Shown in pieces: positions 4,006 through 52,089 of a DNA stretch of 56,392 bases. The DNA comes from Nemertoderma westbladi (Eukaryota > Animalia > Xenacoelomorpha): contig JAUCBJ010003928.1 in assembly GCA_032718475.1 (NCBI GenBank), positions 1 through 56,392 of the forward strand, read 5' to 3'. Position numbers and translations under genes: made by a program. Position 1 is the stretch's first letter; each line of letters begins with the position of its first letter. Under the pieces are notes generated by a model. The model was not told the DNA's origin, did no database searches, and saw only the letters and a program-made list of their open reading frames with translations.

Positions 4006-4013
4006 CCGCTCCC
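4006..4013 (-). other. Polypurine tract (GGGAGCGG) abutting the 3' LTR
   Basis: Plus-strand ccgctccc immediately inside the left LTR; orientation agrees with gag. Confidence 0.7.
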
Positions 4014-15112: not shown

Positions 15113-15117
15113 GCGGC

Positions 15118-15310: not shown

Positions 15311-15677
15311 TTTTCTTTAAGTATGTTTTATTTATTTATTAATAATTTTACTGTGCTAATTTTAACAATTACAAATTACAGCTCATCTTCATAACCAATT
15401 TCTAAAGAATTGATGTTAAAATAAATACAGAATGATTAAATTAAGAAAATTAGGGGCGAGGGTGCCTCCGACCTATTAAAATAGTTGTTGTATTACGGAA
15501 TATTGTGTTTAATGTTCAAGCACAGAAACCAAGGAGACTGGCCACGTTCTAGTTTTATTAATTAACAATTTCCAATGTAAAACGTTTACTGCACTTGCGG
15601 TATAGCTCTACTATATGTATGTATCAAAAAATGTAAACTACTATTACCTCATCTAAGATAAATCTCCACATTAAAAA

Positions 15678-20943: not shown

Positions 20944-22767
20944 TCATTGGTTGTCGTCTAGGGCGTTATACAGGTTGTTATGTAGCGAGCCTTCCCGCTC
21001 ACTGTTGTGTTGAGCTCTAGTCCTCACGCTGTACCTCCGGCCAAGGGAATGGAACCTCCTGGACTCGTCGCCGTCTGACTCCTTGTTGCTGGACCCCTCC
21101 GACGTGGAGGACTCATACTCCTCGGTGGAGTCTGCCTGTCCTGTAGGTTCTTCGTCCATTTGGATCCCTCTACACGCGGACATCCTACCCTCCAGGGCCA
21201 ATGTGTCCGGGTGCAGGGCCCACTCGTCGGCGCTGGCCGTGTACCCGGGGGGCCTGAGGGCCAGACGGATGCGGCCTTCCACCGCCAGACGGAGTATGTG
21301 ATTGGCCGCGCGGAATACGTCGACTCTCCCGCCGCCGCGCGCCGTGTAGAACCGCTTCCGGCACGCCCACGCCTCGCAGATGTTCCAGGCGGAGGCGTCC
21401 GCCGGACAGGGCAGCCGGAGTCCGCGCACCAACCCCGCGCGCTGCGCCAGGTAGCCGACGCACGTGTAGGGCTCCTGGACCTGTGCCACCGGGTAGACGC
21501 CGGCCAGCACCTGGAGCTGGCGGTCGGCCACCGAGGGGAACACGAGCCCGGGGCAGTCGCACAGCCGCACCGTCGGGGTCAGGTAGTACGTCTGGAAGTG
21601 TTTGGTGTGGCCCGGGGTCTTACTGGTGCTGACCACCTTGCGACCCACCAGCCCGTTTATCAGCGAGGATTTACCGACATTGGGCGCGCCCACACACCCT
21701 ATGGTGAGCACCCCGTCCAAGGTGCCGCTCGAGGTGCACTTCTGCATCTCGTTCTGGTAGCCGGAGCATTCGGCTTCCCCCGAGGGCAGCGAGTCGCTTG
21801 TGAATCTGCGAAGCCACGAGTCTAGATCTACGACCTGGCCGGCGATCTCCTTACAGGCCTTGTAAAGTTCCAAAGGGCCGACGGGAGTGAAACGACGCAG
21901 TTTACTGCGTTTCTTTACTTTGGCGAGTTTACCGTCGGTTTCTTCAGTGGGATCAACGTCCCATCTATCCGGAAAGCTTGAGAACGGGATCACGTGTGTC
22001 AGTTTGGGGCAGACCGACCGGATGTATGACTTCCATGCGGTGAGCAGCCCCGGGGACACGATGTCTACCTTGTTGAGTACCAGTATCAGTGGCTTTCCTA
22101 AATCGTCAACAACGTGGTGGTAAAAGTGAGGGTTGAAGTGTATGACGGGGTGTCTAACGTCCACTATGAACAGCACCACATCCGACATCTCCAGCACCCG
22201 CCACAGTTGGCGCCATGTCTCCAGGTTGGTCTCGTAGTAGCTGAGGCGATCGTAGGCCGGTTGTCGTCTCATCGAATCCTCAAACTCTCGCATGTATCGA
22301 GTCTCTTTAGCTTCGAGTTGCGCTTTGCTCTGGTTGTAGCTCCAGGGCGGGCGGATGGGGAAGTTGAGCTGTGCCCATTCCGGGTACACGTCTGAGAAGG
22401 CCAGCTCGAGCGCGGTCTCCGGTAACACCTCCAACGGGAGTTGCGCGGACTCCTTCCGTTTACTCAACTCTGTCTTGGTTTCCTTTACAAATTTTAGGTT
22501 AAACCGATTCGGGTCGTATCCCGACGCTACTGTTTGTGTCCGGAGTCGGGCCGAGGTGGTTGAGGTCTGTGTCTCGGTGTTCCAGGCGTCTGTAGGGTCA
22601 CTGCCTCCTCCGGCCTCTCCAGACGAACTCGAGGATTGTATATCGAGACTGGAGTAACGGGGCAGGCGGCCTTCAACTAAAGTCACACGACCAGTGGGTT
22701 TTTTATCCCTCTTCGCCTGGAGTTGGGCTTTCTTTTGTTTACCGCTGTATGGTTTCTTTCGCGGCAT
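20944..22767 (-). CDS. GNL1: Guanine nucleotide-binding protein-like 1 (circularly permuted GTPase), intronless, 607 aa
   Basis: MPRKKPYS.KQKK.QLQ.KR N-terminus, RPPW, E.NLETWRQLWRVLEMSD, G4 NKVD before G1 GAPNVGKSS, TPGHTKHFQT, DCPGLVFP. Confidence 0.93.
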   Translation of the reverse strand: MPRKKPYSGKQKKAQLQAKRDKKPTGRVTLVEGRLPRYSSLDIQSSSSSGEAGGGSDPTDAWNTETQTSTTSARLRTQTVASGYDPNRFNLKFVKETKTELSKRKESAQLPLEVLPETALELAFSDVYPEWAQLNFPIRPPWSYNQSKAQLEAKETRYMREFEDSMRRQPAYDRLSYYETNLETWRQLWRVLEMSDVVLFIVDVRHPVIHFNPHFYHHVVDDLGKPLILVLNKVDIVSPGLLTAWKSYIRSVCPKLTHVIPFSSFPDRWDVDPTEETDGKLAKVKKRSKLRRFTPVGPLELYKACKEIAGQVVDLDSWLRRFTSDSLPSGEAECSGYQNEMQKCTSSGTLDGVLTIGCVGAPNVGKSSLINGLVGRKVVSTSKTPGHTKHFQTYYLTPTVRLCDCPGLVFPSVADRQLQVLAGVYPVAQVQEPYTCVGYLAQRAGLVRGLRLPCPADASAWNICEAWACRKRFYTARGGGRVDVFRAANHILRLAVEGRIRLALRPPGYTASADEWALHPDTLALEGRMSACRGIQMDEEPTGQADSTEEYESSTSEGSSNKESDGDESRRFHSLGRRYSVRTRAQHNSEREGSLHNNLYNALDDNQ

Positions 22768-22862
22768 CTCTGATCTTGGATTAAAACAGCAGTAGGCCTA
22801 CGTTATCCATTATCTACATTTACAGCATTACCGGTACGAAGTTAAGTTACCGGTAGGCTGGT

Positions 22863-23170: not shown

Positions 23171-23274
23171 GTTGATCCAAACAAAAACTATAAAAAAGTA
23201 GTGAATTATTTTGGCCGCTTTCAGCCACCGTACCTACCGTATCTGATATCAGGATATAAAAATAGGCCCTTTTA

Positions 23275-24060
23275 GAATATTGGAGAATGTTGGAGGTGCA
23301 TCAATCAGATCAGTATACGATGGTTCGACAACATTTGTGTCTACTGTTGACGGTGATACTGAACCATTTGAAGTGTTATGGGGCGTCCTCCAGGGAGACA
23401 CACTTGCACCATTCTTGTTCATAATTGTGGTTGACTATGTTCTACGCATGCCCTTAGATCATCACAATGATGATGGGGTGACGATAACTCCACCTACTGG
23501 CTCCAGAAGTCGAGAAAATCCTGCCAAGTACCTAACTGATCTAGACTTTGCTGATGACTTTGGAGTACTCTCAGAATCATTAGAGGGAGCCCAACGGCTC
23601 CTCAGCTCATTAGAACATGCTGCTTCTAGTGTTGGTCTTTTTATTAACTCCAAAAAGAACAAAATTTTGACAGTTAACTTTGAAAGTCCTCAGCAAGTCT
23701 CTGATCGGATGAGCATAAGCTCAAAGGATTATATGCTTGAGCATGTGGACGACTTCTCTTACCTGGGATCATGGATCCGGAAGTCGTAAGGGAAAGGCAT
23801 GGGCAGCCTTGAATAGGCTTTCCAGGATTTGGAAGTCACAGAGAATTAATCAGAAACTTAAGGTCCGATTATTTAGAGCAGCAGTAGTTCCAGTACTCCT
23901 CTATGGGAGTCCATGCTGGGCTCTAACTGCTGAGGACACCAAATCTCTGGATTGCACATTCACAAGAATTCTACGCCGGGTTCATTGTGTCAAGTACAAT
24001 GCACACATCTCCAACCAGATACTATATAACATTGGAGGTGTTGATAATTAGGTTGCTGTA
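23275..24060 (+). pseudogene. Decayed RTE-clade LINE RT fragment
   Basis: GVLQGDTLAPFLF, DLDFADD, FSYLGSWI, KAWAALNRL, LFRAAV.PVLLYG; frameshift. Confidence 0.88.
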
Positions 24061-24173: not shown

Positions 24174-25774
24174 GGTGAGAATGTACCCAGTGCAAATTAC
24201 TTTCAAAATAAAGGACATCTATCTCGAAATGTCGTTGGTGGTTTCATCTGAAATTTTTACACAACGTTTATGTCGTCAGTCTTGGGGTAATCTGGTACTA
24301 AACGTTTTCACAGGGTACCAATTTTTCGTATAATATTGCACTTTTTGTGATCTTAAATGTTACTTTTCAGAAAAAATAAGATATTTTTATTTAAAAAAAT
24401 TATGTTAAATAATTATTTATTACATGGGAAAAAAAGTATAACTTTTTTCATTATTCTCGAGGCATTTTATCAGCAAGGTTAATAAAGGTCGAGAGAATAT
24501 TGTTATATATATATATGTTAAAATATTTTAGTCTTCTCGAATATTTATTACGTAACTAGAGAGCCGCTTAACTACATAAACCAATATTGGATATTGAGTT
24601 CCGTTTTGGAGTTCGCCTTGCAGACACTATAGTTGCAATAACTTTTGAGTTTGTGAATGGATTTTGCTCAAATTACTTCCAAACCTTTTCTATGTCGATG
24701 CTCTTTCAATATATGTAATATAATTTAAGAAATTCCACCAAAAATATTTTACTTTAATTTTTTCGCCGGGAAAAAAATTTAAATCAATGCAATCCTTCTG
24801 ATTACCTTTTTTCCCTAGGGAAAAAAGTGAAACTTTTTCTCCCGATTTTGGGGTATATTCGAGCGAAAAGGTAACAATTTAAGAATAAAAAAGAATAAAA
24901 GATGTTAACTTATTATGATTGCCTAGATTCTAGCACCAAACACGGTGGGGATATTAATAGAGTACCACATAAAATTTCAGTCAATTTCATCAAGCCGTTC
25001 CCGAGAAATGTGTACCTTCAAAACCTGTTACCTGCAAAAGACACAAAAAAGTAAATGCTGAGAAAAACCCCTTTAAAGTTTTCAAATCTTCCCGCCAATT
25101 TTATGTAAATGACGGAATTTTCAAAATATAAGGTTAGTTCTTAATTTCTGCCAAATTATAAGGAGGCACACCAGCTATCTAAGATTTCCGATATGAGGGT
25201 TTTCATGGTCGCTGTTTTCATTTCTGTTATCAGTTTTAAAGTTTGACATAATCTAGACTGTCGGTCTGCGTGTATGTTGTCTGTCATTCTGTCAGTCAAA
25301 ATATAAAAAAGGACACTGCATCAATAAAAACAATTGCACTGTACCGAAACGGGGTTTTACTGGACGCTGATATCATTTATGACGTCGACGTCAGTTTTGA
25401 TGTTTGATAAAATCTCGGCTGTCTGTATGTCTGTCTGTCTTGTCTGTCTGTATGTCCATCAAAATATAAGGAAGCACTCTACAAACAGACAAACATACTA
25501 GATTCCGTCAAATATCAAAAATGACACCAGAATTGAAAACACCGAGTAGGAAAACCCCAGAGCGATAAATTGAATTAGGTAATATGTTTCCTTATATAAA
25601 ATGTTAAAAAATAGTCCGTTGTGTAAAAAAAATACCGTGCCTTAAAACAATACGTAAGTCGAAATCAAAAATAGATATTGGAAAACGGTTTTTTCCCGGA
25701 AATTACATCAAATTTGGCATTTAATTCCAACATAAAAAATCAATTTTTTTAAACCCCCTAAGGTACATTCTACC
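24174..25774. mobile_element. Non-autonomous TIR DNA transposon, Kolobok-like (TTAA TSD, GG...CC ends)
   Basis: TTAA|GGTGAGAATGTACC ... GGTACATTCTACC|TTAA; no ORF; an internal segment (24540-24730) recurs at 225-440. Confidence 0.6.
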
Positions 25775-29371: not shown

Positions 29372-30690
29372 GGTGGGTTAAATTAGGGAGGCCCACAATA
29401 AACTGATCACTCCCAGAGTCCCAGTGGGTTAAATTAGGGAGGTCCACAATAAACTGATCACTCCCAGAGTCCCAGTGGGTTAAATTAGGGAGGCCCACAA
29501 TAAACTGATCACTCCCAGAGTCCCAGTGGGTTAAATTAGGTAGGCCCACAATAAACTTATCACTCCCAGAGTCCCAGTGGGTTAAATTAGGGAGGCCCAC
29601 AATAAACTGATCACTCCCAGAGTCCCAGTGGGTTCAATTAGGGAGGCCCACAATAAACTGATCACTCCCAGAGTCCCAGTGGGTTCAATTAGGGAGGCCC
29701 ACAATAAACTGATCACTCCCCGAGTCCCAGTGGGTTCAATTAGGGAGGCCCACAATAAACTGATCACTCCCAGAGTCCCAGTGGGTTCAATTAGGGAGGC
29801 CCACAATAAACTGATCACTCCCAGAGTCCCAGTGGGTTCAATTAGGGAGGCCCACAATAAACTGATCACTCCCAGAGTCCCAGTGGGTTAAATTAGGGAG
29901 GTCCACAATAAACTGATCACTCCCAGAGTCCCAGTGGGTTAAGTTAGGGAGGCCCACAATAAACTGATCACTCCCAGAGTCCCAGTGGGTTAAATTAGAG
30001 TGGCCCACAATAAACTGATCACTCCCAGAGTCCCAGTGGGTTAAATTAGAGTGGCCCACAATAAACTGATCACTCCCAGAGTCCCAGTGGGTTAAATTAG
30101 AGTGGCCCACAATAAACTGATCACTCCCAGAGTCCCAGTGGGTTAAATTAGAGTGGCCCACAATAAACTGATCACTCCCAGAGTCCCAGTGGGTTAAGTT
30201 AGGGAGGCCCACAATAAACTGATCACTCCCAGAGTCCCAGTGGGTTAAATTAGGGAGGCCCACAATAAACTTATCACTCCCAGAGTCCCAGTGGGTTAAA
30301 TTAGGGAGGCCCACAATAAACTGATCACTCCCAGAGTCCCAGTGGGTTAAATTAGGGAGGCCCACAATAAACTGATCACTCCCAGAGTCCCAGTGGGTTA
30401 AATTAGGGAGGTCCACAATAAACTGATCACTCCCAGAGTCCCAGTGGGTTCAATTAGGGAAGCCCACAATAAACTGATCACTCCCAGAGTCCCAGTGGGT
30501 TAAATTAGGGAGGCCCACAATAAACTGATCACTCCCAGAGTCCCAGTGGGTTAAATTAGGGAGGCCCACAATAAACTGATCACTCCCAGAGTCCCAGTGG
30601 GTTCAATTAGGGAGGCCCACAATAAACTGATCACTCCCAGAGTCCCAGGGGTTCAATTAGGGAGGCCCACAATAAACTGATCACTCCCAG
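29372..30690. repeat. 51-bp minisatellite, ~26 copies
   Basis: Unit GTGGGTTAAATTAGGGAGGCCCACAATAAACTGATCACTCCCAGAGTCCCA. Confidence 0.97.
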
Positions 30691-31549: not shown

Positions 31550-34500
31550 CTAGAGAGAAATTGGGCTGTTTCCATAGTAACGGGTTATCATATCCCTGGG
31601 AGGTAACTTGGGGAAGGATTTCTCCCAGTTTCCTTTATTCCGTTCTGCTTGTGTTGGTGGCCGTACGCGGGAATCTAACGGCGTGCGGTATATCACTTTC
31701 TTAGTATAATTCACCTACAAAAGTTAAATATTTTCTCACAAACAAATCAAAATTAATCGAAAGGTCAATTCCAACAGGCAACTTAAATAAACTTTTACTT
31801 TGTTTAGTTGTTTTCAACTTTACCTGTTTTTGAACAGTACTTGGCTGGTGGGTTGACTCCCATAGCACTAGACCCTGCTTGCTCTGACAGTGGGGACATG
31901 TGATCTCCTTGTTTATTGCCTTGCCAATGGAGACTGGGTGTCCATTTCTTCGGGCTTTCATTATTGGAATATCTCCCTTATTATTTGTTATTTCTAACCT
32001 GTAACAAATTATATTAGTTTTATTAGCAACTTCCAATATTATTTTGCACCTTCTGTGTTCTATAAATGCGGGCTAGCTCAGTTGATTGAGCGCCGGGCCT
32101 GCAATCTATTGGTTGTAGGTTCAGGCCCTCCCGGTTCCACTCAACCTTTCATCGATAAAATGAGTACCAATATAATTACTGGGATCAAAAACAAGGGATA
32201 TGAGTAGCGTCCACCCCAACCCTCGGGTAGCAGCTATCGAAAGAGGAGCCTTCGGGTCGCCTCCGGTCGGCTCCGGGCCGCCTTTGGGTCGGCTCCGGGC
32301 CGCCTCCGGGTCGGCTCCGGGCGCCTTCGGGTCGCCTCCGGGTCGGCTCCGGGGCGCCTTCGGGTCGCCTCCGGTCGGCTCCGGGCCGCCTCCGGGTCGG
32401 CTCCGGGGCGCCTTCGGGTCGCCTCCGCGTCGCCTTCGGGTCGCCGCCGGGTCGCCTCTGCGTCGCCTCCGGGTCGCCTTTGGGTCGCCGCCGGGTCGCC
32501 TCCGCGTCGCCTTCGGGTCGCCGCCGGGTCGCATCTGCGTCGCTTCCAGGTCGCCTTCGGGCCGCCTCCGGGTCGGCTCCGGGCCACCTCCGGTCTCGGC
32601 CGACTGGTTTGCATTGTATTCTATTTAATTTTCGGTATTCTTTCTTTCGTACCACTGTTACTCATTGTCTTGGTAGTCATTAGTTTGTACCGGTGGACTG
32701 GGTTACTGGGATTCCGATGTGCAAATAATGTTGACAATCTGGAAGAGATTTTTTACAGTGAATCTGTTCAATTTCAAAACATTGTATAATTTTTAATATT
32801 TATTATTTATGTAGCCAGACGGGGCTCAGCACGTACACGGATAAAAGCCTTAAGACACTATCAGATAGATTACCCTGTTTACTTTCACTTTCTCGCCAGA
32901 CACTACTTTCGTTCCCTCTCTTTGATTTATTGGTATTTGGTTAAATTTCTTAAATACCGAGTTTGTGATACAGTAGAATCGCTCAATATTAATCTGTATC
33001 TCATAACTGAGCCTCGTGCTGCGCGAAGGCCCGACGAACGTGTTATACATCCCAAGGATTAAGTCAAAGGGTTTAATGGGTTTAACTTCAGACTGTAACT
33101 CCATCAGCCACCACTTACTGTGTCATGCGGACTGTAACCCCACCAGCCACCACTTGCTGTGTCATGCAGACTGTAACCCCACCAGCCACCACTTTCTGTG
33201 TCCGGCAGACTGTAACCCCACCAGCCACCACTTGCTGTGTCATGCAGACTCTAACCTCACCAGCCACCACTTGCTGTGTCATGGAGACTGTAACCCCACC
33301 AGCCACCACTTGCTGTCTCATGCAGACTGTAACCCCACCAGCCACCACTTGCTGTGTCATGCAGACTCTAACCTCACCAGCCACCACATGCTGTGTCATG
33401 CAGACTCTAACCTCACCAGCCACCACTTGCTGTGTCCGGCAGACTGTAACCCCACCAGCCACCACTTGCTGTGTCCGGCAGACTGTAACCCCACCAGCCA
33501 CCACTTGCTGTGTCCGGCAGACTGTAACCCCACTAGCCACCACTTGCTTGGTCATGCAGACTGTAACCCCACTAGCCACCACTTGCTGTGTCATGCAGAC
33601 TGTAACCCACACCAGCCACCACATGCTGTGTCATGCAGACTCTAACCTCACCAGCCACCACATGCTGTGTCATGCAGACTGTAACCTCACCAGCCACCAC
33701 ATGCTGTGTCATGCAGACTCTAACCTCACCAGCCACCACATGCTGTGTCATGCAGACTGTAACCTCACCAGCCACCACATGCTGTGTCATGCAGACTCTA
33801 ACCTCACCAGCCACCACATGCTGTGTCATGCAGACTGTAACCCCACCATCCACCACTTGCTGTGTCATGCAGACTCTAACCCCACCAGCCACCACATGCT
33901 GTGTCATGCAGACTGTAACCCCACTAGCCACCACTTGCTGTGTCATGCAGACTGTAACCCCACTAGCCACCACTTGCTGTGTCATGCAGACTGTAACCCC
34001 CACCAGCCACCACTTGCTGTGTCATGCAGACTCTAACCTCACCAGCCACCACATGCTGTGTCATGCAGACTGTAACCCCACTAGCCACCACTTGCTGTGT
34101 CATGCAGACTGTAACCCCACTAGCCACCACTTGCTGTGTCATGCAGACTGTAACCCCCACCAGCCACCACTTGCTGTGTCCGGCAGACTGTAACCCCACC
34201 AGCCACCACATGCTGTGTCATGCAGACTGTAACCCCACCAGCCACCACTTGCTGTGTCATGCAGACTGTAACCCCACCAGCCACCACTTGCTGTGTCCGG
34301 CAGACTCTAACCCCACCAGCCACCACTTGCTGTGTCATGCAGACTCTAACCCCACCAGCCACCACTTGCTGTGTCCGGCAGACTGTAACCCCACCAGCCA
34401 CCACTTGCTGTGTGCTGCACACTGTTAGTTAACCCCCAACACACGCGTACAGACTGCGTGCTGACTGTACCTCACTGACCTTGCTCCGTGATACAGACAG

Positions 34501-37500
34501 CAACTAAAGCATTCCGCATGTCCCCCTCCCGCCGCTTTATGCGCAGCTGTTTCTTTGTTGTCGTCTGTGTCGTTTGGACTCCATTCATTCTCAAGTAACC
34601 AATGCAAGGTGGTGTTAGCCCCACTTAACGCAGCAATGTGAGTAAGTTTCCTTCCTAAACTATCTCGACAATCTTCTGGGGTTCCTATGTGACAATAATA
34701 TTAATAATAACACACAGATATACAATATAGAATACAAGGGTGGATGGGAAGTACAGCACCAATCAAACCACCCCCCCCCCCCCCCCCCCCCCCTCCCCCG
34801 CCACCCTCCAAATGCCGTGCATCTATGATTCTGTGGCTCAGATGCCATAATTATAGGCATCAATATTCATTCATAATATTATTGTCATTGCAACAAACTT
34901 TGAGTGACTAATAAAAGGTCAACAGTAATAGCAACAATAATAGCCCACTCCATAGCAAATAAATTCTATATTCGCATGAAGAAGCACCGATGAAGCACCC
35001 ATGACTTTGAAACCCGGATAACGGGTTCGACCCCCAATAGGATGGGTTGATATATTTCGTTAAGGAGATCGTCATCATACCACTATTATTCCACACACAT
35101 TTATGTCTTCCGACAAATGTTAGTAACTAACGTCACTAACGTTAGTTTATAGTGATAAATATTATACAATGTGTAATAATTTATTTTTAGGCCTACCATT
35201 TTACTTTTCAGTTTAAGGCTACCGGTACCTTTTTTCAGCAAATATCGCAGACATTTCAGGTGGTCCCTAGAGGCGGCTAGATGTGCCGCCCAGAATCCCT
35301 GTTTATCCAAAGTAAATATACTGCATCCGTGTTTGTGAAGAAACTTTAGAGACGCAAAACTTCCATTTTCTGCCGCTAGATGGAGCGGTGTTTTGCCCGC
35401 CTTATCACGAGTTTCCAAATCACAGTTCTTCTCCAATAACAACCTATAGTATTATATAATTGTTATATGTGTATCTAGGAAACCTATCATCTGGTACTGT
35501 GGGGCGAGCCACGAAGTGAGCGAAGCCTTAGCATATGGGTACCAGTAACGAGATGTCTGTCGTCGTCGTCGTCGTAAATTTTTGATCGCTAATAACTCGA
35601 TTATTTCTTGATGAAATTAAACGAAACTTGGTACGTATGTAGTCCGTCAAAAGTTTAGAAAGAAGACTAGTTAGTTGAAGACTTCTGACTAACGACAGAC
35701 AACTCGTTAATGGTAACCATATGCTAAAGGTTTTGCTCACTTCGTGCTGCGCGAAGGCCCCACGAAATACTTATTTACGAATCCCACAAAAGTACCCCAC
35801 GTGTAAATACTGTATACAGTAAGTAGTCTTGTATTTAAAATATTGATAGATAAATTGAGACTGGTTGGTTCCGGTAGCTTAAAGTCAAATTTATTTTACC
35901 GATATACATTGCAGTATATGATGTGCTACTGCGATACATACAGACATAGGCCTAATAAATAAAACAATTAAGTTTCAAATAACAATGTTAAACGAACTTG
36001 AGGATATGAATATGGTTCTTCTCAGATGCGAAATGAGCACAGGAGCGTCTTCGGAGATCTACTACATTCAAACTTCCGCCATGGGCGAGGAGCAATGCCA
36101 GACAATCTGCCTCACCATGGTAACAGGCGCAATGAACAGCTGTCATTCCTTTGCCGTCTTGCAAATCTATGCTTTGATTCTAATTAATTGATTAATTTAT
36201 TTTGCATATAAGGTATATAAGTAATTACGTATTAACTTTATGACTTATAACCGCGTAATTAACGGTCTCTATTTGGTTTTATAGTTACGGATTGTTTAGC
36301 ATTTGGAGTTAGTGCGGCGCTAACAGCCTACAGAGTTGGAGTTTCGGGTTGCTTCCCGTGTTGTCGCGTTCACCGATAACTGAATGTAACTATTGTATGC
36401 ACGATGTACGATACTAGAGCTTATACTGTATAGTACTGTACAGTACAGTTTTGTCTGACTGTGCGCTGGTTCTTGCATAAATACACCTGAATTGTATTGC
36501 CCCAATCCATACCTTGGATAATAACAGTTTGAGGACATCACAGCGCCCCCCAGCGACTGCTTCATATATAGCGGTTCTCCCAGCCACGGCTGGTACCAAC
36601 GGATCCGATCCCACCGCCAGCAGCTCTGCGACTACCCCGCCTTGTCCGTAACCCGCGGCCCGATGTAGAGGACTTCGGATGTCGCCAACACGAACTAATA
36701 CGGAGAGCGGGTCCCTTCCGCGGAAGTGTTTACGAACCTAACAGATAATAATATGTTCCAGAATAAAGTTTATATCATACTGTAACGGTGTTATAACTTA
36801 TAGCTGGACACATCAATAATTCGCTTCTGTATTTCGTGAGCTGGATCTTTTGTTGTCGCTTTTGTGGTCAATTCATATCTCGTCTCAATTTCAAAATATA
36901 AATTAATGGATAGCAGCAGGTTCATCGATTTATATCTCAATATGTATGTGTATCACCGGCAATTCATGGCGAAATTTAAAACGTATTCGTTATATTTTTA
37001 AAATTGTTATATTTAGTGAGTTAAGTAGTGCTAAATGTAAATTTTTTAACCTCTCGTTCTAGTGAAATAAAATCCGGCCAGGTCAACAGTAAGAGAAGGT
37101 GTACCAAGGAACTCACCCTGTCTAGATCTCCCCGTTCCGCCGCTTCTATTAAATCCAAAACTGATTCGTTGACGGATGTGTTTACCAACAGACTCTTATT
37201 GATTCGCGAAGGTTTACTCCCATCTCCTCTCTTAACCTACAACATAAACAACTTATTTGTGCACGGCGTGTGGTTTCCGTTGTGAGAAATATATGTTGGA
37301 AAATATATTACGTACCTTACAATGAAACCCCTACAAAGAACCAGACGAATAGACAAAGCCACTCAAAATCATTCGGTCAGCCATAAACTTCCCAAGTTAG
37401 TCATCGTTCTCCAGTCGGGTTCTGGTGAAGCCGGCGAACGCAAGTAATTGGCTGGCCACCCCCGCCCCCGGAGTCTTATAGACCATGAGGTGGTCATAGT

Positions 37501-40500
37501 AGTAGCACAAGGTTGTGAACAGGTAGGTTGATGCTCCCGCACATATGGTTTATAATATGGTTTTTATGGATTTTATTACAGAATTAAGCAACAAAACGTA
37601 CCAATTTAAGAATAAAATTAAGTATTAGGCCTGCCTACATGGGAAAAAAACGTAGAACATTTGGTTTTCAATATTATCTTTAACCTTTAACCTTTATTAA
37701 CCTCGCTGATTCTCGGTAAATAAAATGCCTCGAGAATAGTTAAAAATAATTAGTAATTAATTAATTAGCAAAGTAAGAAATAATTAATTATTGCCGGTAC
37801 ATCCCTTTAGTTCATCTCATTTTTTTACTAGCTAATATTTGATAATTTGAGCGATTTTGATAATTTTGAATTTTGATTTTGATAATGATGTAATATTATG
37901 GTTTTTTTGTTCAGAAATGGAAAAAATGAGAAAGCGCGTCACCGGGTGTTGAACCAGCGCTATACGTACGTTTCAGCCTATCAGGCCTCATCAGTAGCGC
38001 TAACCAGTTCAGCCACTTGTACCTGACATTCACTCTCTCACCTAATCCATTTCTATTGAACAGGCAGTCTTAAGTTGCATATCCTATCTCTAACAGTGAA
38101 TCTACCGGCCTCAAGTATGTTAGAATTTTTCCAATTTGTCTAATTCATTTGAAAATAATTGTTGCTTTCTTGAGCAACAAGTGTTCCGCCGTGTTAGGAA
38201 TCTATCAACAAGTTGCAGATACAAGTCAAAATTTTGGTCTTCTTGGAGTTAACAAAAGACCAACTCTAAAAGCAGCCTACTGACCAACACTAAAAGCAGC
38301 CTGCTGACCAACACTAAAAGCAGCCTGCTGACCAACACTAAAAGGAGCTGCTCCAATGAGCAGATGACGGGTTGTTACCAACACCTCATATTTATTAAGA
38401 TGGTCTAAGAACATGCATAGAACATAATCCACCACAATTATCAAATAGAATGGTGCAAGTGTAAGCGTGAAGGAGTTCCTTAGTTCAAATGGATCTGTGT
38501 AACCATCAATGGTAGACAGAAATGTTGATGAGAATTCTTTCAGATATGTGATAGTTGCAATAATTTCCTCAGTAATATGAGCTCCAAACACTCAGGCATT
38601 TTAAAGACATCAGCTCTCAGGTAGGACGCTACACCACTGGCACGAGTGGTTTTGATGCCCTTTACAGCAGTCTTGGATTCAGTAAAGGAGATATTACCAT
38701 GCCTGAACTATAATAATTTACTAATATAATTATAATAAATATACTGCTGCATTACTATTATAATAACTGAGATTCAAATGATTAAAGTATGGTAACTTAA
38801 AAATAAATTAATATGGTTGACAGGTCTATCTACAGGACATCTACAGGTATAAAACCATTCAAGCCTAATATATAATATACAGTACATAGAGGTAACCCAT
38901 TTTCTTAGTATACTTATTCAAGCCATTCAACTCCGTCTCCCGCCCGCGTGTTTAAAATCCTTGAGCTGAGCCCTATGGTACCGGTATCAATCAATCAATC
39001 AAATTATATTTATATAGCGCTAAAAACTTAAATTTAAAATTAGACTCTAAGCGCTTGAAGGAGAACCATACAGCGCTAAGCGCGGTATGGTTCCACAGTT
39101 AGTATTCCCCCAGCAGGTCTTCTACCATTCAGTCTATGGATGACCCGGTTGGTCACGTTGTAAACTTATGCTAACTAGAGTCTTGAGTTCGAGTATCTGT
39201 TGAAGACATCCGAAAACAAAAGCCCAAGACATGATCTGTGTTAAAGGTACCGGAATCACGCCTTCTCTAAGTAAATGTATTCCAGCAGTACTGGAGCCTG
39301 CAGTCGCAGTTGTGCTCTTATTGAGCAATAGTGTCTTCTGATTGTAAGTTATATTGATCTACTGATGGTAAGTAAGTATACACCAGGGGCCGTATTCGTT
39401 AAGGTCATACAGTAGTACCGATCTAAGAGCTAACACTAGCTCCGTGCTCAGTTCTCCGTTTTATCACCGGACTAGGAGGCTGTTAGCTGGTAGTGGGAAT
39501 GAATACCATTCTAACTCGGTGCTACTGCTACATAGCGCTACAACTGCTAAAAATATTTAGCTCCAAACTTTGAAGTTAGTTGGGGTACTAACTTTGCAAC
39601 GCTTCATGAATACCAACCCTTGAAGCTACGCAGTGTTCATAATATGCAAGTCTCACTAAAAAAATTAAGAACAATACAACGTCGTTAGTAACATCTTACA
39701 GCTCAAACCCAGTCCACTTGGCAGACATAAAGGATGCGTCTTTCCGGCAAATGCTCCATGTAGAACTGATTCTACAGTATATGATCTTGGTTTATTATTT
39801 AAATTAATATTTTCTGCCTACCTTGCTTTCATCGTCAATATAAAGGGCATCAACTTCATCTTGTTCCGACGTATCATCCTGCCTAAATGTAGTAAACAGC
39901 TCAACTTTAATCATACAGCTTAACTTTATTACATTCACCTTAGCTTCAATGAACATCCCGCACTACAAAAGAATGTCATTGCATGTTAACAATGCCACAA
40001 AGTTTATATATTTCATGGATAAATTTATTAATATATTTTAGTAATTTATCTTTAAAACACGTAATGTGTGGACGAAAAATAATGTTTGCAATTTTCGGGC
40101 CTGAATTATCAGGTCAAATAATTTTAGATGATTTTAAAGATCTGACATCATGCTACGGAGCCAATGGAATAATTCCACTAAATTACGAGATTTGCGTTGC
40201 GATGCTTAAAAAAATACCTGGAAAAAACACTGATTATTATTAATCTGCGGTACCTCTCTCTGGTTCCAAATGTTTGTGATTTTATTACTATTTACAGTAG
40301 CAGAGGGGTGTTGAAACCATACTCAGTGGGGGTATCTGAAATTGTAACTCAAATTGTACAAAGGTGGGTTTTATTAGAACATATCCAAACACCAAAACTT
40401 TTCACAATTAGTGTTCATGAAAAAGTAATTATCTTTTTGTCACCAATTTTAATTGATCGAAATTCAATTTTTCTGTCCGAGTATAGAGTTGGCAGGTTTT

Positions 40501-42165: not shown

Positions 42166-42889
42166 TTTAAATTATAAAATCCAATGAAGATTTCAAGCAA
42201 AGATTCTAAACATATCGAATAGTTTATATTCCCTTAATTTATGTAATAAAGTATCCCATATATGAATAAAGTAAATTATTTAAAGAAAAGCTATATAATT
42301 ACGCACCATCTATCGATTTGTTATGTATAATAAATTTAATACCTTTGTTACGTTTATCTGAATGTACATTCGTTGTGCTTTTAAATTGAAAATAATGAAT
42401 TACCTACAAAAAATTAAGATTAACTAAATTAGACTAGGGCAGGTAGGTGTTAATTAAAATTATACGGAATATTTCAAATTTGGTTAATGGAAATATAGTA
42501 GTAAATTAGAACGAAAAGTATAAACGCTTAGAAACTAAAATTTTGGCAAAGACATCATATTTCGAACATAATAAATAAACACAGGGACTAGGCAACTTAA
42601 TATTTGATATTGCCAAATAGTCTCCAATGCCAAACAAAGTTCCAGCAGTAGTGGAGCTTATTTTAATGTCACGTTTATTTATTCCAACGCCTATCGGCCT
42701 ATCGGCACATTGCACACGCATTACGGGATTACGAGCGGCCTTACGTCCAAACTGCAATTTTACTACAGTATACTGTATATATATAATATATTGTTTCATT
42801 TTATTAGGAATATATATATATATATATATAATTAATTGTACCGGTATAACGGATTGAAAACAACCGTGAGGGTAAGATCCGGTTTGTAA

Positions 42890-43112
42890 ATATAACAACA
42901 ATAATATGCTATAAAGCAAAATAAAAACCAATATCTTACAAAACGAAAATATTTATTTTACAAATTTTCGACTCGACATGAGTCTTATTCAGGTATTTAT
43001 AATAAATACATGAATAAGACTCATGTCGAGTCGAAAATTTGTAAAATAAATATTTTCGTTTTGTAAGATATTGGTTTTTATTTTGCTTTATAGCATATTA
43101 TTGTTGTTATAT
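42890..43112. repeat. 223-bp near-perfect palindrome (one mismatch, centre 43001), possibly Penelope-derived
   Basis: Arms were paired base by base; each arm has TGAATAA-GACTC-ATGTC-GAGTC-GAAA. Confidence 0.9.
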
Positions 43113-43411
43113 ATAAGTTTAAATTAAGTAAAAGAAAGTTATGGAATATGACTGTAGGGTGTGAGATCAAGTTGTTTTAGTATAATAATATTTTAAGAAT
43201 TAAATTATATTTTATAATTAAAATTAATTAATTTTAAAATTTAAAATTTTATTAAATTTGTAGTGATTGATCATATGAGTTGTCACTTTTTGAATTCTTA
43301 AAATATTATTATTATATATATTAATATATATATATATACTAGGTAATCTATGTAGGTATGCAATCTATGTAGGTATGGGTATGCAATCTAGGCAATCTGA
43401 AATTTAAATAA

Positions 43412-44465
43412 CCCACCATAACTTACAGTGGGCACGGTAACTCCTACACAGACGTTATTACTGCCAGGACCTACCATAACTTACAGTGGACACGGTAACT
43501 CCTACACAGACGTTATTACTGACAGGACCTACCATAATTTACCGTGGACACGGTAACTCACAAAGACGTTATTACTGACAGGACCTACCATAATTTACCG
43601 TGGACACGGTAACTCCTACACAGACGTTATTACTGACAGGACCTACCATAATTTACCGTAGACACGGTAACTCCTACACAGACGTTATTACTGAGAGGAC
43701 CTACCATAACTTACCGTGGACACGGTAACTCCGACACAGACGTTATTACTGACAGGACCTACCATAATTTACCGTGGACACGGTAACTCCTACACAGACG
43801 TTATTACTGACAGGACCTACCATAATTTACCGTGGACACGGTAACTCCTACACAGACTTTATTACTGACAGGACCCACCATAATTTACCGTGGACACGGT
43901 AACTCCTACACAGACGTTATTACTGAGAGGACGTACCATAACTTACCGTGGACACGGTAATTCCTACATAGACGTTATTACTGACAGGACCTACCATAAT
44001 TTACCGTGGACACGGTAACTCCTACACAGACGTTATTACTGACAGGACCTACCATAATTTACCGTGGACACGGTAACTCCTACACAGACTTTATTACTGA
44101 CAGGACCCACCATAATTTACCGTGGACACGGTAACTCCTACACAGACGTTATTACTGAGAGGACGTACCATAACTTACCATGGACACGGTAACTCCTACA
44201 TAGACGTTATTACTGACAGGACCTACCATAATTTACCGTGGACACGGTAACTCCTACACAGACGTTATTACTGACAGGACCTACCATAATTTACCGTGGA
44301 CACGGTAACTCCTACACAGACGTTATTACTGACAGGACCCACCATAATTTACCGTGGACACGGTATCTCCAACACAGACGTTATTACTGAGAGGACCTAT
44401 CATAACTTGTAACTTACTGTACCATGGACACGGTAACTCCTACATAGACGTTATTACTGACTACC
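43412..44465. repeat. 58-bp minisatellite with an internal hairpin, ~18 copies
   Basis: Unit GGACCTACCATAATTTACCGTGGACACGGTAACTCCTACACAGACGTTATTACTGACA. Confidence 0.97.
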
Positions 44466-47705: not shown

Positions 47706-48887
47706 TCATCCATCATGATCGCCGGCATTGGGATCTATTTTTAGACTTTTACTCTTCCTGCATAATTTAGCTACTATTTTAGGAACAATATTCGCCCGAA
47801 ATAGTAGAATCCAGAGTAACTCAAAGAATTCAAATAGTGTAAGCAGACTCATTCCGATCCAAAGGCCTAAAGCGCCCCCAATGTTGCTAAGTAGATCCTG
47901 CCACAAGTACTTCGGGGACTCCGTTATAGTATCAACATCCATTGTCTTTATTGCAACCTCTAGACTTGCCACATTATTTCTAAGCGATTTTAAAATGTTC
48001 TCCTGAAATAATTTGATGTCTGATTTGGATTTAAAGTTCTCTATGCATTCGTCATAAAGAAATTGATCTTTAAAAGTATTACGACATGCTTTCTTTGTTT
48101 CATCAATAAGCCATTTTGTTAAACCATCATTTTTTTCGCTTAAAAGTTTTATCATGACGTGTGCGAAATATTTTTGTGCTGGCCATAATGATTGGCTAGA
48201 AGTATCAATATCATAATGGGTTTGATTACATGATCGCAGACATTGGTGGCATGTGTAGTTGTCAGCCGAAGCGATAAACATTTCTCTTATACGTTTTGGA
48301 CAGTCCATATTATTTATTGAAAATTCAGTTTTCACGAAACTGCAGACAGGATGTCCATTTATGAAGTAATCGTCAACACACCCACACTCTTCCAACATCT
48401 TCTTTTGCACACAATATTGCCTACATAAGTGAGATGAATAACCATATTTCATGTTATTATATTTAGTGTACTCGTGAAGGACTTTAATGATATTTGTTTT
48501 ATCTAAGCACTGAATGTATGGTGGTGGTTCTAGTACAGTGATGGTTTTCGTTATAGACATATGGGTATGTCTTCCAGGTAGAATAGTAATACCATCAGAA
48601 AAAGGGTTAGGATGTTGTGAAGGTGAGTGGACTGACACTCGAATACCTGTAGTATGTGACATTAGCCCAATATATTCACTGGGTTCCACATTCAAGGTCA
48701 GCTTCAATCTTTGTTCAAGGTATTTTGTTTCGTGTGGATTTGTTCTAGGGCTATCTTCTGATCTGGCATTGAAGGTGAAACAGTTGCCATAATTCTTGTC
48801 TTGGAATGTTTGGAAGTCATGGCATGGTTTATCGTCAAAGCTGCAATGCAAAACCATGTCCTTAAATTGATGGCCCATTCCTTTAAT
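47706..48887 (-). CDS. ENaC/DEG family sodium channel, exon 2 (extracellular domain, TM2)
   Basis: ag|IKGMGHQFKDMVLHCSF, YGNCFTFN, Cys-rich thumb, LLSNIGGALGLWIGMSLLTLFE (GxS filter). Confidence 0.93.
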   Translation of the reverse strand: MKGMGHQFKDMVLHCSFDDKPCHDFQTFQDKNYGNCFTFNARSEDSPRTNPHETKYLEQRLKLTLNVEPSEYIGLMSHTTGIRVSVHSPSQHPNPFSDGITILPGRHTHMSITKTITVLEPPPYIQCLDKTNIIKVLHEYTKYNNMKYGYSSHLCRQYCVQKKMLEECGCVDDYFINGHPVCSFVKTEFSINNMDCPKRIREMFIASADNYTCHQCLRSCNQTHYDIDTSSQSLWPAQKYFAHVMIKLLSEKNDGLTKWLIDETKKACRNTFKDQFLYDECIENFKSKSDIKLFQENILKSLRNNVASLEVAIKTMDVDTITESPKYLWQDLLSNIGGALGLWIGMSLLTLFEFFELLWILLFRANIVPKIVAKLCRKSKSLKIDPNAGDHDG

Positions 48888-49381
48888 CTAAAAGGCAAAC
48901 ATTAAAAGTTATTGTTGATATGTTTTCTATCCACGGCATTTATATAAAAAAAATTTAAAATAAATATTTTTTCAAAATCTCTATGAAATACATGACATGT
49001 TGTTTATGTAAAACAATATGGTATCCATATTGGTAAATTTAATGATTCGTGGTTGGTATTTGATAGTTGTGTTGAAATATCAATGGCATATGCAGTCATG
49101 GGAAATCCAAATAACACTGTAAGTGAACGTCAGTTATTGAATACCAGTACAGAAACCACAGAAACCGATGGTGGTATAAATTAGTATTATTCACTATTAA
49201 TATCAGTATTATTACTATTGTACTCTTCTATTTATTCTACATGTTCTAGAACTACTCGGATTAGTTTAGTTACTAATGCTTGTGGCTAATGCCATGCATT
49301 ATCAAATCTGGCCCAATAGTAGAATAAAGTAAATGTTACTGTGGAATTTGTAACCTTTGACCTCTTATGTTTTCACCTTAC

Positions 49382-50230
49382 CTGAAATCCTGGCATCATT
49401 ACAATATTTGACACATCACTAAAATCAAATATTTTTGAATTTAGCCATGCATCAAGGAATATTCTCGAACTAACATCAGTTGCAGTACAGTCAGATTCAT
49501 CTGCCCTGTTACCACAGTCATCATGTGTATCACATTTTTGTCCAACCGGGTAGCAAATATCTGTGTCTGGTAAGTTGCATGGCAGCAAATCAACCATACC
49601 TGTTTGCACATCCATAAACGATACATCACCACCATTTGCTTTCAGGTTTTGAAGAAAGGTATTGCCAATTAGCTCCTTGGTAGAACATTTGAATAAACAA
49701 CCACGTTCATCGGCATTTGTGGTGCAGTCACCAAGCCCATTACAGACAGAAGAAGGATCCTTACATTCCCCTGTTCCATCGGCACAATCAAATTTATCTC
49801 CCATACAAGGTGCGTGAGAATCCACATTCATGTTTTCATTATCCAATTCATAAAGAAAAAGTGAAAATGCTAGCTGATCCACGTTAAGAAGATCTCCATA
49901 TGGCCGGATGCTTTCTGATATTTCCGCTGATTGTTTCAATGATGTCATTTTGATATTATTTTCATTGCAGATTGTTACTCCTGGAAATTCAATTGAAGTT
50001 GATGTCTCAGTTTTTGTGGAGAGAGTTGTCGGTAACTGACTGTAATCCATAAGCAACAAGCCGACTTGGTACAAATAACCACTAAATCCCCCCATAAGTA
50101 GAAACATCCAGACAACACCCCACACCCGATTAGGGGAGTTGATAATTCTAGGAGCGCCATGAAGAGTGACTCCCTCTATGAATTGTCGGCAAATGTAGGC
50201 TACTGAGAGTTTTGAATTGTTTTCTGTCAT
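49382..50230 (-). CDS. ENaC/DEG family sodium channel, exon 1 (HG motif, TM1, two LDLa-like modules)
   Basis: TLHG, TM1, FPGVTICNEN, C..DKFDC...G.C.....VCNG..DC...ADE..C and C.....KCD...DC...ADE.DC; the phase-0 donor gtaagg joins exon 2 (~676 aa in total). Confidence 0.92.
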
Positions 50231-52089
50231 TCTTATCGTTTTCTGCTTATATATTCGCAAAGTTATACAAAATAATATATTAAATATTAAACAGAATACT
50301 TGGGCTTCAAATCAAAATTTAAACGGATTATACGATAAGTAAGTTAATCTAGAGAAAACTGGAAAAACTAATATATTTAAATCTATCTACTCTTACAAAT
50401 ATTAATCCAAGTAGGACTTACGATTTATAATTAGTATATTTATGTTAAATAATAATATTATAAATACACCCCCAAGCGGGGTAAATCGGTACCGATTAAA
50501 ATGTGTAAAAATATGGATTCTTTATAAAATTCATACATGATGTTCATTCATAAAATAGTATTATAATAAATATCTTAAAAGTTATATAAGGCAGATAGGG
50601 AGGGACATTGTGAGCAACTAAAGTCGTGGTATCTATCATTGGCGGGGTCGAAACAGAATCTGCAGATGCATCCGGTTGTAGAGGGCTGGAAAGAATATTT
50701 ATGTTTCATGGAGCCGTAATCGTTTGGGATGAGAAGTATGTTTCTACCTTCCCTATATTGCCGATTATGTGGGCATGTGTGAGCAAACCTATGTACAAGA
50801 GTGCTGCTACATTGACAGGGACAGCACTATAGTGCCATTCTGCAAAGCAGAATGGTACATAATGCTTGCAGAACTAGAAATAAAGCCACCCCAAATCACT
50901 TTGGCGGCGATGTTCACAAGAGCAGCAGCGGGTAGCGGAATGTCCACAAGGTCACAAACATGATGTCACTGAATGGATCTGTACGTTTTCAGTTTCTGCT
51001 ATATGGGGTTTTATTGATAATTATGAGTACATGATAATTATAACTATAAAGTTTTATTATTTTTTAAGTTTTAATGATTTAATATAATGAATATGGCAAA
51101 TTTCTATCATGTTTTATAAAATAATAATGTTTTTTTATTGGGAAACGCTGGACCCTCTTAATGTTATTTATTTATGTTGTTAGTTGTGACTTTTAGAGTC
51201 GAGTGAGTGCGTGCGATAACTAACTAGCTCTCAATATTTAATTTAAAAAAGCAAAAAATAATTTTGCATCTCCCTCCGAGGTTGTGCTGTGAGCTTTTAC
51301 GGTTTTAACCGTAAAGAAGCAGGATCCTCCGTGATGTAGTGATGATAAACTTGCCTTCAGAGAAGGTTTGATTCCATACTCCTTGATGGAATATTCTTCT
51401 ATACTGCTAAGTAATATACCATCCAATGTTTCTAACATTAAACTCAGATCATCAGCAAAGTCAAAGCCCATCAAGTTTATTGGCGGTTTACTTTACTGAG
51501 AAATATTAAACTAGGTAGTAAATTACGGTCTCACTACAAGCCATAGGGGTTCATTTATTAATTCTACCCCCACCAACCCCCCCCCCCCCCCCCGTATCAG
51601 ATTGATGCATTTAATTTGATAATAAAAAATTATTCTTTTGATAATTTAATCAATAAAACCCTTTTAATACTGTATATTAAAATTCACATAAACGACGAAA
51701 ATAATGAACTCGTTGAATAAGTTAGTAGTTATATAAAATCGTAGTTAAATAAAATCGTCATATGACGCCTATAGATTGGTACCTAGCTATAGTAGGTCAC
51801 GCGACATCGCATTCAATATTACCTTTAACTATTTTCCTACTGGACTCATTATTACCGTGGATTCAAATCAACACACTGGACAAGCGATAGCCACTAATAA
51901 GACAGTTAATAAATTGTAGCGTAAATTCTTATTATGTGGTTACAGTCCAATAAATGCATCAGAACCAGAGCAAGCAGTCAAGTTTTAATAAGATCTGAAC
52001 GGACATTTAAAGGACATTCCGAAACACAAAGTAGCTGGACTCCTGACGCGAAAATTCTACAAAAGTCTTCAAAATGCCCCAATGCAGCG

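What the first reader, a model, noticed from the sequence alone, without database searches (positions are those of the whole stretch)
37921..38020. tRNA-hammerhead chimera: Pol III cassette whose anticodon arm is replaced by a complete hammerhead ribozyme, sense within a host intron
Seen: the minus strand reads A box (TGGCTGAACTGG), 7-bp stem I AGCGCUA/UAGCGCU, core CUGAUGA, stem II GGCCU/AGGCU, GAAA, palindromic stem III ACGUACGU, a GUA cleavage triplet (predicted cut between 37963 and 37962), B box (GGTTCAACACC) and a T6 terminator, all within ~100 nt. The stem I strands overlap the would-be D-stem (AGC) and T-stem (GCUGG), so the tRNA-like and ribozyme folds compete. It lies in intron 37237-39821 of the ankyrin gene in the transcribed orientation. 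Known: minimal type I hammerheads with a short palindromic stem III occur in Penelope-like elements and retrozymes and are thought to cleave as dimers; Schistosoma Sm-alpha repeats combine Pol III boxes with a hammerhead. Inference: a self-cleaving SINE or ncRNA family with the ribozyme placed between the two promoter boxes, able to yield defined halves or circles, trans-cleave through dimers, or cut the host pre-mRNA.
Basis: partly seen in the sequence, partly recalled or inferred. Interest (0 to 1): 0.85.

Follow-up and report, generated by a model that had tools for sequence, protein, structure and literature searches.

The report
Ribozyme inside a repeat's tRNA promoter
This is one front-truncated copy of a very abundant animal repeat in which a minimal self-cutting (hammerhead) RNA motif lies between the two boxes of a tRNA-type promoter, at the tip of a long predicted hairpin; it is likely a non-coding passenger of Penelope retrotransposons, and its predicted cut would split its own promoter sequence in two, unlike the schistosome repeat it most resembles.

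Summary
The motifs are real and not chance (0 matches with both boxes in 300 shuffles). But the 100 bases are only the middle of a high-copy dispersed repeat: 1,196-2,164 contigs per DNA run lie on it. The family covers 38124-37883 and goes on upstream in other copies. The hammerhead is minimal and predicted to work only as a dimer; this copy has a weaker G-U pair where most of the family has G-C. It tips a predicted rod of about 60 pairs (z -5) that reaches past both the A box and the T6. It is not a tRNA and not a classical SINE, since about 100 bp of family sequence precede the A box and 40 follow the terminator. Unique 3' flanks, an AC-rich end before ATT, 5' truncation, inversions and one tandem joint point to Penelope-type copying; no Penelope gene was linked. 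In Schistosoma Sm-alpha both boxes precede the ribozyme. An unrelated, probably fungal repeat also has a hammerhead core between box-like motifs. Cleavage and Pol III use are untested. New variant of a known kind; interest 0.57.

The parts
37883..38124 (-). The copy of the repeat family in this window, truncated at its 5' side (38124)
   Evidence: Depth rises over this span in all 4 runs; loose ends beyond 38124 agree among contigs (0.74-0.98), loose ends near 37905 do not (0.51-0.60)
38063..38124 (-). Upstream family sequence of unknown role
   Evidence: High depth; a 23-residue frame has no Pfam match at E up to 1; no convincing match to the window's LINE proteins
38002..38062 (-). 5' arm of the predicted rod (includes the A box)
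   Evidence: Fold of 38070-37900, -60.8 kcal/mol, z -4.97, 0 of 200 shuffles as good
38004..38015 (-). Pol III A box
   Evidence: Matches the recalled consensus TRGYNNARNNGG; one common variant at 38008 stays a purine
37956..38001 (-). Minimal type I hammerhead: stem I, core, stem II, GAAA, palindromic stem III, GUA
   Evidence: homodimer predicted at -38.6 against 2 x -14.5 kcal/mol for monomers, with the 8-pair stem III duplex formed between molecules
37962..37963 (-). Predicted cleavage site (after the A of GUA)
   Evidence: Position follows from hammerhead numbering (established knowledge); not observed
37945..37955 (-). Pol III B box
   Evidence: Matches GGTTCRANNCC; this copy's private letter at 37947 lies in a free position
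37909..37955 (-). 3' arm of the predicted rod (includes B box and T6)
37921..37926 (-). T6, the only run of four or more T in the element; candidate Pol III terminator
   Evidence: no variant or deletion row listed there among the rows shown
37883..37910 (-). AC-rich 3' end of the family, fading after ATT into unrelated flanks
   Evidence: Loose ends from 69, 57, 72 and 10 contigs in the 4 runs share about 18 letters and then disagree
37237..39821 (-). Host intron of an ankyrin-repeat gene
   Evidence: GT-AG ends; ankyrin exons downstream; a contig of run X4 matches only 37115-37238

Best explanation
This is a solitary, front-truncated copy of an abundant non-coding repeat that holds a minimal hammerhead between Pol III A and B boxes, and the family is likely copied by Penelope-like (PLE) enzymes, as animal retrozymes are. 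Shown: the motifs, the high copy number, dispersed 3' ends, truncation, some inversions and one head-to-tail joint. Predicted by folding: a rod of about 60 pairs with the ribozyme at its tip, and a stem III that forms only between two copies. Inferred: new copies are made from a transcript longer than the Pol III unit (read-through, tandem or circular RNA), because the family includes sequence upstream of the A box and downstream of the T6; reverse transcription starts in the AC-rich 3' end and usually stops early. Inferred: the boxes drive a second, short RNA of about 105-125 nt ending at the T6. Cleavage needs two copies and puts the A box and B box on different pieces, so only uncut, re-ligated or tandem RNA can hand on a whole promoter. 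This copy is most likely a passive passenger in the intron.
For: 1,196, 1,398 and 2,164 contigs laid in three DNA runs; summed depth at the core 1.2e5, 3.7e5 and 2.8e5 against 16, 24 and 25 on unique intron sequence (the tool warns this is no copy number). 3' flanks differ, 5' continuation is shared. Of 15 joints listed (12 more not shown), 4 join opposite strands and 1 is head-to-tail. No shared word of 7 or more letters between the flanks. 5' truncation, inverted partial copies, tandems and hard-to-see duplications are described PLE traits (PMC8557442, passages); a PLE enzyme cuts ATT and starts in an AC-rich stem loop (PMC11167929, passages). Minimal hammerheads with palindromic stem III mark metazoan PLE repeats and are mostly solitary (PMC4209133, parts 1-2 of 4). 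The common variants inside the ribozyme spare it: G-U to G-C in stem II (60-85% of depth), a loop II change, a palindrome change that leaves a U-G pair.
Against: No PLE reading frame was linked to the repeat, none was recognised among the window's proteins scanned (10 of 52 ORFs), and no genome was available. The frame that starts inside the core closes after about 26 codons (read), unlike the anole PLE, whose gene starts in the ribozyme. The full 5' end is unknown. Joints come from single contigs at a likeness where repeats can mislead, and one of the four inversions may reflect the rod itself. Variants do not show the rod to be selected: of 22 variant rows tested, 16 fall on paired positions and only 8 keep the pair, against 56% expected for random transitions. 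The plus strand also folds well (z -3.4). With about 15% of positions varying, an unvaried 13-base core is not significant (my estimate, about 0.12). A strong T6 is awkward for a tandem read-through model. Related minimal hammerheads cleave poorly even as dimers, and cleavage was dispensable for the anole PLE in vitro.
Confidence: 0.55

Rival explanations
1. It is the terminal repeat (pLTR) of an autonomous Penelope-like element that took up a tRNA-type promoter; the short copies are its usual truncation products.
For: The family goes on upstream of 38124 in 11, 14, 10 and 2 contigs with a shared sequence; depth falls towards the 5' side; PLE hammerheads lie in pLTRs. Unchecked notes from other genomes describe PLE ends with tRNA-like heads (leads only).
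Against: The 23 residues readable upstream match no Pfam family; the frame after the core closes early; nothing links the repeat to a reverse transcriptase.
Confidence: 0.17
2. It is a truncated or solo LTR of a small non-autonomous LTR element that combines a Helenus-type internal tRNA promoter with a retrozyme-type ribozyme.
For: Helenus LTRs carry internal A and B boxes without a working tRNA fold (PMC10886601, passages). A CA lies close to the family's 3' end. The probably fungal parallel ends in CA before four different flanks.
Against: No short duplication at the flanks; inversions and ragged ends; LTR retrozymes are described with type III ribozymes and in plants.
Confidence: 0.12
3. 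The boxes are vestigial or by-products of an old inverted duplication; the element is an ordinary retrozyme monomer or a DNA palindrome, and Pol III plays no part.
For: In the rod the A box pairs with the B box; both strands fold; two contigs of the cDNA-like run, which may be one locus, suggest RNA that goes on upstream of the tRNA-like start.
Against: Both boxes and a T6 in the right order and spacing; chance about 4e-5 for the boxes alone; the common A-box variant keeps the consensus.
Confidence: 0.09
4. It is a classical tRNA-derived SINE moved by a LINE from its own Pol III transcript.
For: A box, B box and terminator; RTE-type LINE pieces are in the window and one lies about 100 bp upstream.
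Against: About 100 bp of family sequence upstream of the A box and 40 bp beyond the T6; no shared poly(A) or simple-repeat tail in the loose ends; no target duplication; no LINE-derived tail.
Confidence: 0.07

Closest known systems
Schistosoma Sm-alpha / Sj-alpha SINE-like repeats (seen through PMC6765202 passages; PMC2770079 passages; PMC8490949 passages and supplement part 7; the original 1998 and 2000 papers were not read)
   Same: High-copy animal repeat of about 300 bp with Pol III boxes, a type I hammerhead and a short palindromic stem III.
   Different: In the Sm-alpha sequence printed the B box lies about 35 bases before the ribozyme core (read by eye), and the review draws 'promoter followed by ribozyme'. 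The cut leaves that promoter whole. Here the cut falls between the boxes, and a T6 follows. No sequence likeness was evident by eye; no alignment was run.
Metazoan non-LTR retrozymes (PMC7229834, passages; bioRxiv 10.64898/2026.07.22.740005, part 1 of 5 and passages)
   Same: Non-coding units of 150-450 bp, type I hammerhead, highly self-paired RNA, solitary monomers common, proposed PLE origin.
   Different: Defined by tandem arrays and circular RNA; here one tandem joint was seen and no circle could be tested. Neither main text contains the term 'polymerase III' or 'Pol III' (first paper) or 'promoter' and 'tRNA' (preprint).
Minimal hammerheads of Penelope-like element pLTRs (PMC4209133, parts 1-2 of 4; PMC8557442 and PMC11167929, passages)
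   Same: Palindromic stem III, dimer dependence, mostly solitary truncated copies, inversions, AT-rich targets.
   Different: Stem I is longer (7 pairs, extended by a rod) and stem II shorter than in the schistosome PLE motifs; no PLE gene linked; Pol III boxes bracket the motif.
Helenus TRIMs (PMC10886601, passages)
   Same: tRNA-derived A and B boxes in the interior of a repeat, without a functional tRNA fold.
   Different: LTR elements with PBS, PPT and short duplications; no ribozyme reported in the passages seen.
Engineered tRNA-embedded hammerheads (recalled; not confirmed)
   Same: A hammerhead placed between the A and B boxes and transcribed by Pol III.
   Different: Laboratory constructs that cut other RNAs; this is a natural, self-targeted, mobile version.

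Membership tests
Type I hammerhead ribozyme (minimal, dimer type) | Core CUGANGA, GAAA and NUH with stems I and II | tested here: met
Type I hammerhead ribozyme (minimal, dimer type) | Short palindromic stem III that pairs between two copies | tested here: met
   8 of 8 palindromic, 2 pairs as monomer; duplex -9.8 kcal/mol and formed in the predicted dimer
Type I hammerhead ribozyme (minimal, dimer type) | G10.1-C11.1 pair at the base of stem II | tested here: inconclusive
   G-U in this copy; C in 60-85% of family depth
Type I hammerhead ribozyme (minimal, dimer type) | Match to an Rfam hammerhead model | tested here: not met
   No hammerhead hit at E up to 10; whether those models cover minimal forms was not checked
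Type I hammerhead ribozyme (minimal, dimer type) | Mg-dependent self-cleavage | not testable with these tools
   No bench data; contigs cannot show RNA ends
tRNA gene | Cloverleaf with acceptor stem and anticodon loop | tested here: not met
   ARAGORN 0 genes; no Rfam tRNA hit; D and T stems possible but minor
tRNA-derived SINE | Internal A and B boxes | tested here: met
tRNA-derived SINE | tRNA-like head at the 5' end of the element | tested here: not met
   At least 109 bp of family sequence upstream of the A box
tRNA-derived SINE | Poly(A) or simple-repeat tail and target duplication | tested here: not met
   No shared tail in loose ends; no shared word of 7 or more letters in this copy's flanks (one copy only)
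Sm-alpha family | Whole Pol III promoter upstream of the hammerhead | tested here: not met
   B box is downstream here, upstream in Sm-alpha
Non-LTR retrozyme | Non-coding unit of 150-450 bp with a type I hammerhead | tested here: inconclusive
   At least 242 bp plus about 30 more seen as loose ends; full length unknown
Non-LTR retrozyme | Head-to-tail tandem copies | tested here: inconclusive
   1 of 15 listed joints, one contig in each of 3 DNA runs; short contigs could hide more
Non-LTR retrozyme | Unit-length linear and circular RNA | not testable with these tools
   Only contigs available
Penelope-like element (autonomous) | RT plus GIY-YIG reading frame between pLTRs | tested here: inconclusive
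   None found beside this copy; the copy is truncated and no genome is held
Penelope-like element (autonomous) | 5' truncation, inversions, partial tandems, AT-rich target | tested here: met
   with the caveats given under Best explanation
Helenus / LTR retrozyme | TG...CA LTRs, PBS, PPT, 4-6 bp duplication | tested here: inconclusive
   5' end missing; no duplication of 7 or more letters, 6-letter matches are AT-rich and unplaced

The most novel reading that the evidence does not exclude
A kind of mobile RNA, arisen separately in animals and fungi, builds its ribozyme into the middle of its own Pol III promoter. Cutting splits the promoter, so only re-ligated or tandem RNA can found an active copy. 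The short Pol III RNA, made from a few master loci, pairs through the palindrome with thousands of solitary copies in host pre-mRNAs and switches on their cleavage in trans: a genome-wide, RNA-only way to cut introns and UTRs.
Probability: 0.12. Interest if true: 0.85.

Novelty: new variant of a known kind. Interest (0 to 1): 0.57.

Why it matters
Thousands of minimal hammerheads in animal genomes stand alone although they need a partner to cut, and their role is described as unclear (PMC8557442; PMC4209133). A family with its own Pol III cassette around the ribozyme offers a source of abundant partner RNA and a small, clonable system to test that. It would also be a natural case of a ribozyme that cuts its own promoter sequence, and of a SINE-like promoter on a PLE passenger. 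If the boxes are silent and no cut occurs, it is one more retrozyme-like repeat.

Tried and rejected
Rfam and ARAGORN: nothing relevant. No genome held, so no direct copy count, full-length copy, orientation bias or PLE search. No second copy in the window. Descriptor scans for core plus downstream B box: 2 viral, 63 metagenome and 46 prokaryote loci; 0 of 111 form a type I hammerhead with stems of 4 or more pairs; 4 of the 63 are the type III repeat noted below. No RNA holder was listed; this is no evidence on expression. No empty-site allele among the joints shown (15 shown, 22 not), so insertion ends and duplication were not fixed. Idea that the upstream 100 bp is LINE or endonuclease coding sequence: not supported. 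Covariation in the rod: inconclusive; 22 of the 40 variant rows shown were tested, chosen for support in DNA runs, 18 mostly X4-specific or low-share rows left out and 6 more not shown. Some contigs stop at 37963-37967, next to the predicted cut; rejected as evidence, since contig ends may be branch points and lie 1-5 bases off. Depth in X4 was not used to rank expression: the neighbouring repeat at 37536-37803 is as deep or deeper there. Host lineage: the GNL1 protein has only 38-49% identity to its best 120 hits, nearly all named ones animals; no closer placement was made. Earlier scan notes held no look-alike stretch and no hammerhead note in this genome. Ten literature searches listed no paper whose title, abstract start or read passages describe a natural hammerhead between A and B boxes; most subscription papers, Repbase and Dfam were not searchable, two key papers were not held, and the preprint's supplements were not seen.

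Full report
Observation. A type I hammerhead descriptor finds one site in the window, this one, with both boxes beside it. In 300 dinucleotide shuffles it finds 1 site at looser stems, none as good as this, and none with both boxes. The intron has GT-AG ends at 39821 and 37237 and lies on the strand of the ankyrin exons. ARAGORN and Rfam see no tRNA and Rfam no hammerhead. Stem III makes only 2 pairs in one molecule. Two molecules are predicted to fold together at -38.6 kcal/mol against 2 x -14.5, with stems I and II kept and the palindromes paired. The ribozyme is therefore of the minimal, dimer type.

It is a repeat, and larger than reported. No genome is held, so I laid public contigs on the site. 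At 80% likeness 1,196, 1,398, 2,164 and 85 contigs lie on 37800-38150 in runs X1-X4 (X2 and X3 are one sample). Summed depth at the core is 1.2e5, 3.7e5 and 2.8e5 against 16, 24 and 25 on unique intron sequence. The tool warns that this is not a copy number; I read it as hundreds to about ten thousand copies, most likely thousands. The family spans 38124 to about 37883. Beyond 38124 other copies continue with a shared sequence (agreement 0.74-0.98), so this copy is cut short at its front. At the 3' side copies share about 18 AC-rich letters ending in ATT and then disagree (0.51-0.60), so they are dispersed. Of 15 joints listed (12 not shown), 4 join opposite strands and 1 is head-to-tail, the last in one contig in each of the three DNA runs. 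This copy's flanks share no word of 7 or more letters. A decayed RTE-type LINE fragment lies about 100 bp upstream but does not extend into the element.

A long predicted rod. The 100-mer folds like its shuffles (z 0.18). The 171-mer 38070-37900 folds into one hairpin of 60 pairs with the ribozyme at its tip (z -4.97; z -3.25 for the whole 242 bp). Leaving the core and palindrome open costs 1.2 kcal/mol. The rod starts about 47 bases upstream of the A box and runs past the T6, so it belongs to an RNA longer than a Pol III transcript, or to the DNA. The evidence that it is selected is weak: the opposite strand also folds (z -3.4 against -4.8), and of 16 variants at paired positions 8 keep the pair, no better than the 56% expected for transitions (22 of 40 shown rows tested). 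Two of the 8 breaks would be repaired by a variant at the partner position, but linkage cannot be seen. Inside the ribozyme the common DNA variants are a G-U to G-C change at the base of stem II (60-72% in DNA runs, 85% in X4), a loop II change and a palindrome change that leaves a U-G pair; none is in the core or stem I. With so few variable sites this is compatible with function but not proof.

tRNA versus ribozyme fold. Over five trial 5' starts ending at the T6, most stem I pairs have probability 0.5-0.9, the D stem 0-0.17, the T stem 0.01-0.41. I found no acceptor stem by eye. The tRNA-like part is best seen as promoter boxes, not a tRNA body.

RNA. No run is on record as RNA. X4 behaves like cDNA: one 2,248-base contig matches only 37115-37238, unique intron bins are empty, and a loose end resembles a template-switch adaptor (recalled). 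The 2-base overhangs at both ends of that match are the letters the neighbouring exons would supply, which supports normal splicing. Family contigs are present in X4 and some run through the predicted cut site. One variant with a 4-base insertion just before an intact core has single-copy depth in the DNA runs (16-20) and depth 1,108 in X4. A change at 37961 with the same depth would, by eye, restore stem I pairing around a 4-base bulge. That is a weak hint of an expressed master-like locus. A second X4 contig of depth about 725 covers 38023-38041; if it is the same locus, its RNA starts upstream of the tRNA-like start. Contigs show neither ends, strand nor level.

A parallel. A descriptor scan of metagenomes gave 63 loci. 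Four (L013, L016, L024, L051; one contig-name prefix) share about 125 identical bases at a contig start and then diverge. They hold A-box-like strings, a hammerhead core matched by Rfam Hammerhead_3 at E 0.0095, below the gathering score, a B box and a T-arm-like stem. One flank has WD40 exons separated by a gap of about 50 bases, which looks fungal. The sequence is unlike the animal repeat by eye, the ribozyme type differs, the A-box-like strings overlap the ribozyme's first stems, stem I is irregular and the fold is unremarkable (z -1.63). I found it after the fact among 111 loci, so it is a lead. The viral and prokaryote scans gave chance-like hits only.

How it likely works. The family cannot be copied from a single Pol III transcript, which would lack the upstream 100 bp and the last 40 bp. 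Its traits match those described for Penelope-like elements: truncation, inverted pieces and partial tandems (PMC8557442, passages), cutting at ATT and priming in an AC-rich stem loop (PMC11167929, passages), and solitary minimal hammerheads (PMC4209133, parts 1-2 of 4). A preprint argues that animal retrozymes are non-autonomous PLE derivatives with many solitary copies, 42-44% of them intronic in Xenopus (10.64898/2026.07.22.740005, part 1 of 5 and passages). I infer a PLE-copied passenger whose boxes also yield a short RNA. A cut would need two copies and would separate A from B. No PLE was linked, and neither cleavage nor Pol III use is shown. Related motifs cut poorly even as dimers. This copy is solitary and carries the weaker pair, so an effect on the ankyrin message is unlikely. 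An intronic, sense position is ordinary for so abundant a repeat.

Comparison and novelty. It works most like Sm-alpha and the non-LTR retrozymes. It is not a Sm-alpha member: there the B box precedes the ribozyme core (by eye) and a review draws the promoter before the ribozyme (PMC6765202, passages). It fails the SINE tests for head position and tail. Retrozyme and PLE membership are inconclusive. Helenus shows internal tRNA boxes in LTRs (PMC10886601, passages). Ten searches turned up no natural hammerhead between A and B boxes, within a library that lacks most subscription papers, Repbase and Dfam; the 1998 Sm-alpha paper and the 2017 dimer paper were not held. Unchecked notes from other genomes describe PLE ends with a tRNA-like head ahead of the ribozyme; they show the pairing of Pol III boxes with PLE hammerheads may be common, which lowers surprise, and none listed puts the ribozyme between the boxes.

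Verdict. Real, high-copy, with a layout I could not find described; mechanism inferred, function untested. New variant of a known kind, interest 0.57.

Noticed in passing
L013:20-125, L016, L024, L051: A different dispersed repeat, probably fungal, whose 3' end holds A-box-like strings, a type III hammerhead (RF00008, E 0.0095), a B box and a T-arm-like stem, ending in CA before four different flanks; a possible Helenus-retrozyme hybrid.
   Followed up: partly
family variant mapping to window 37905-38019 (run X4, record 26): Single-copy depth in three DNA runs but depth 1,108 in the cDNA-like run; 4-base insertion before the core with an apparent compensating change in stem I.
   Followed up: partly
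window 37536-37803: Another high-copy repeat next to the element, deep in DNA runs and in X4; part of it recurs near 24406-24470.
   Followed up: no
window 38225-38591: Decayed RTE-type LINE fragment (52% identity over 64 residues to the copy at 23247-23789), with short tandem duplications near 38280-38345.
   Followed up: partly
window 47706-50311 (-): ENaC/degenerin-type channel gene in two large frames with an LDL-receptor class A match inside the extracellular part.
   Followed up: no
window 20944-22797 (-): GNL1-like GTPase in one unbroken frame; best database hits only 38-49% identical, so the host has no close relative in the protein collection.
   Followed up: partly
window 7153-11739 (-) and 4084-5548 (-): BEL/Pao-type retrotransposon frame (DUF1759) and downstream frames with no Pfam match for the one scanned, near a 1.2-kb direct repeat at 2789-4008 and 13894-15115.
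   Followed up: no
window 29373-30690, 33089-34441, 43411-44461, 42887-43115: Three minisatellite arrays (steps of about 51, 39/78 and 58 bp) and a 229-bp near-perfect palindrome.
   Followed up: no
window 15675-16688 (+): A 337-residue frame with no Pfam match.
   Followed up: no
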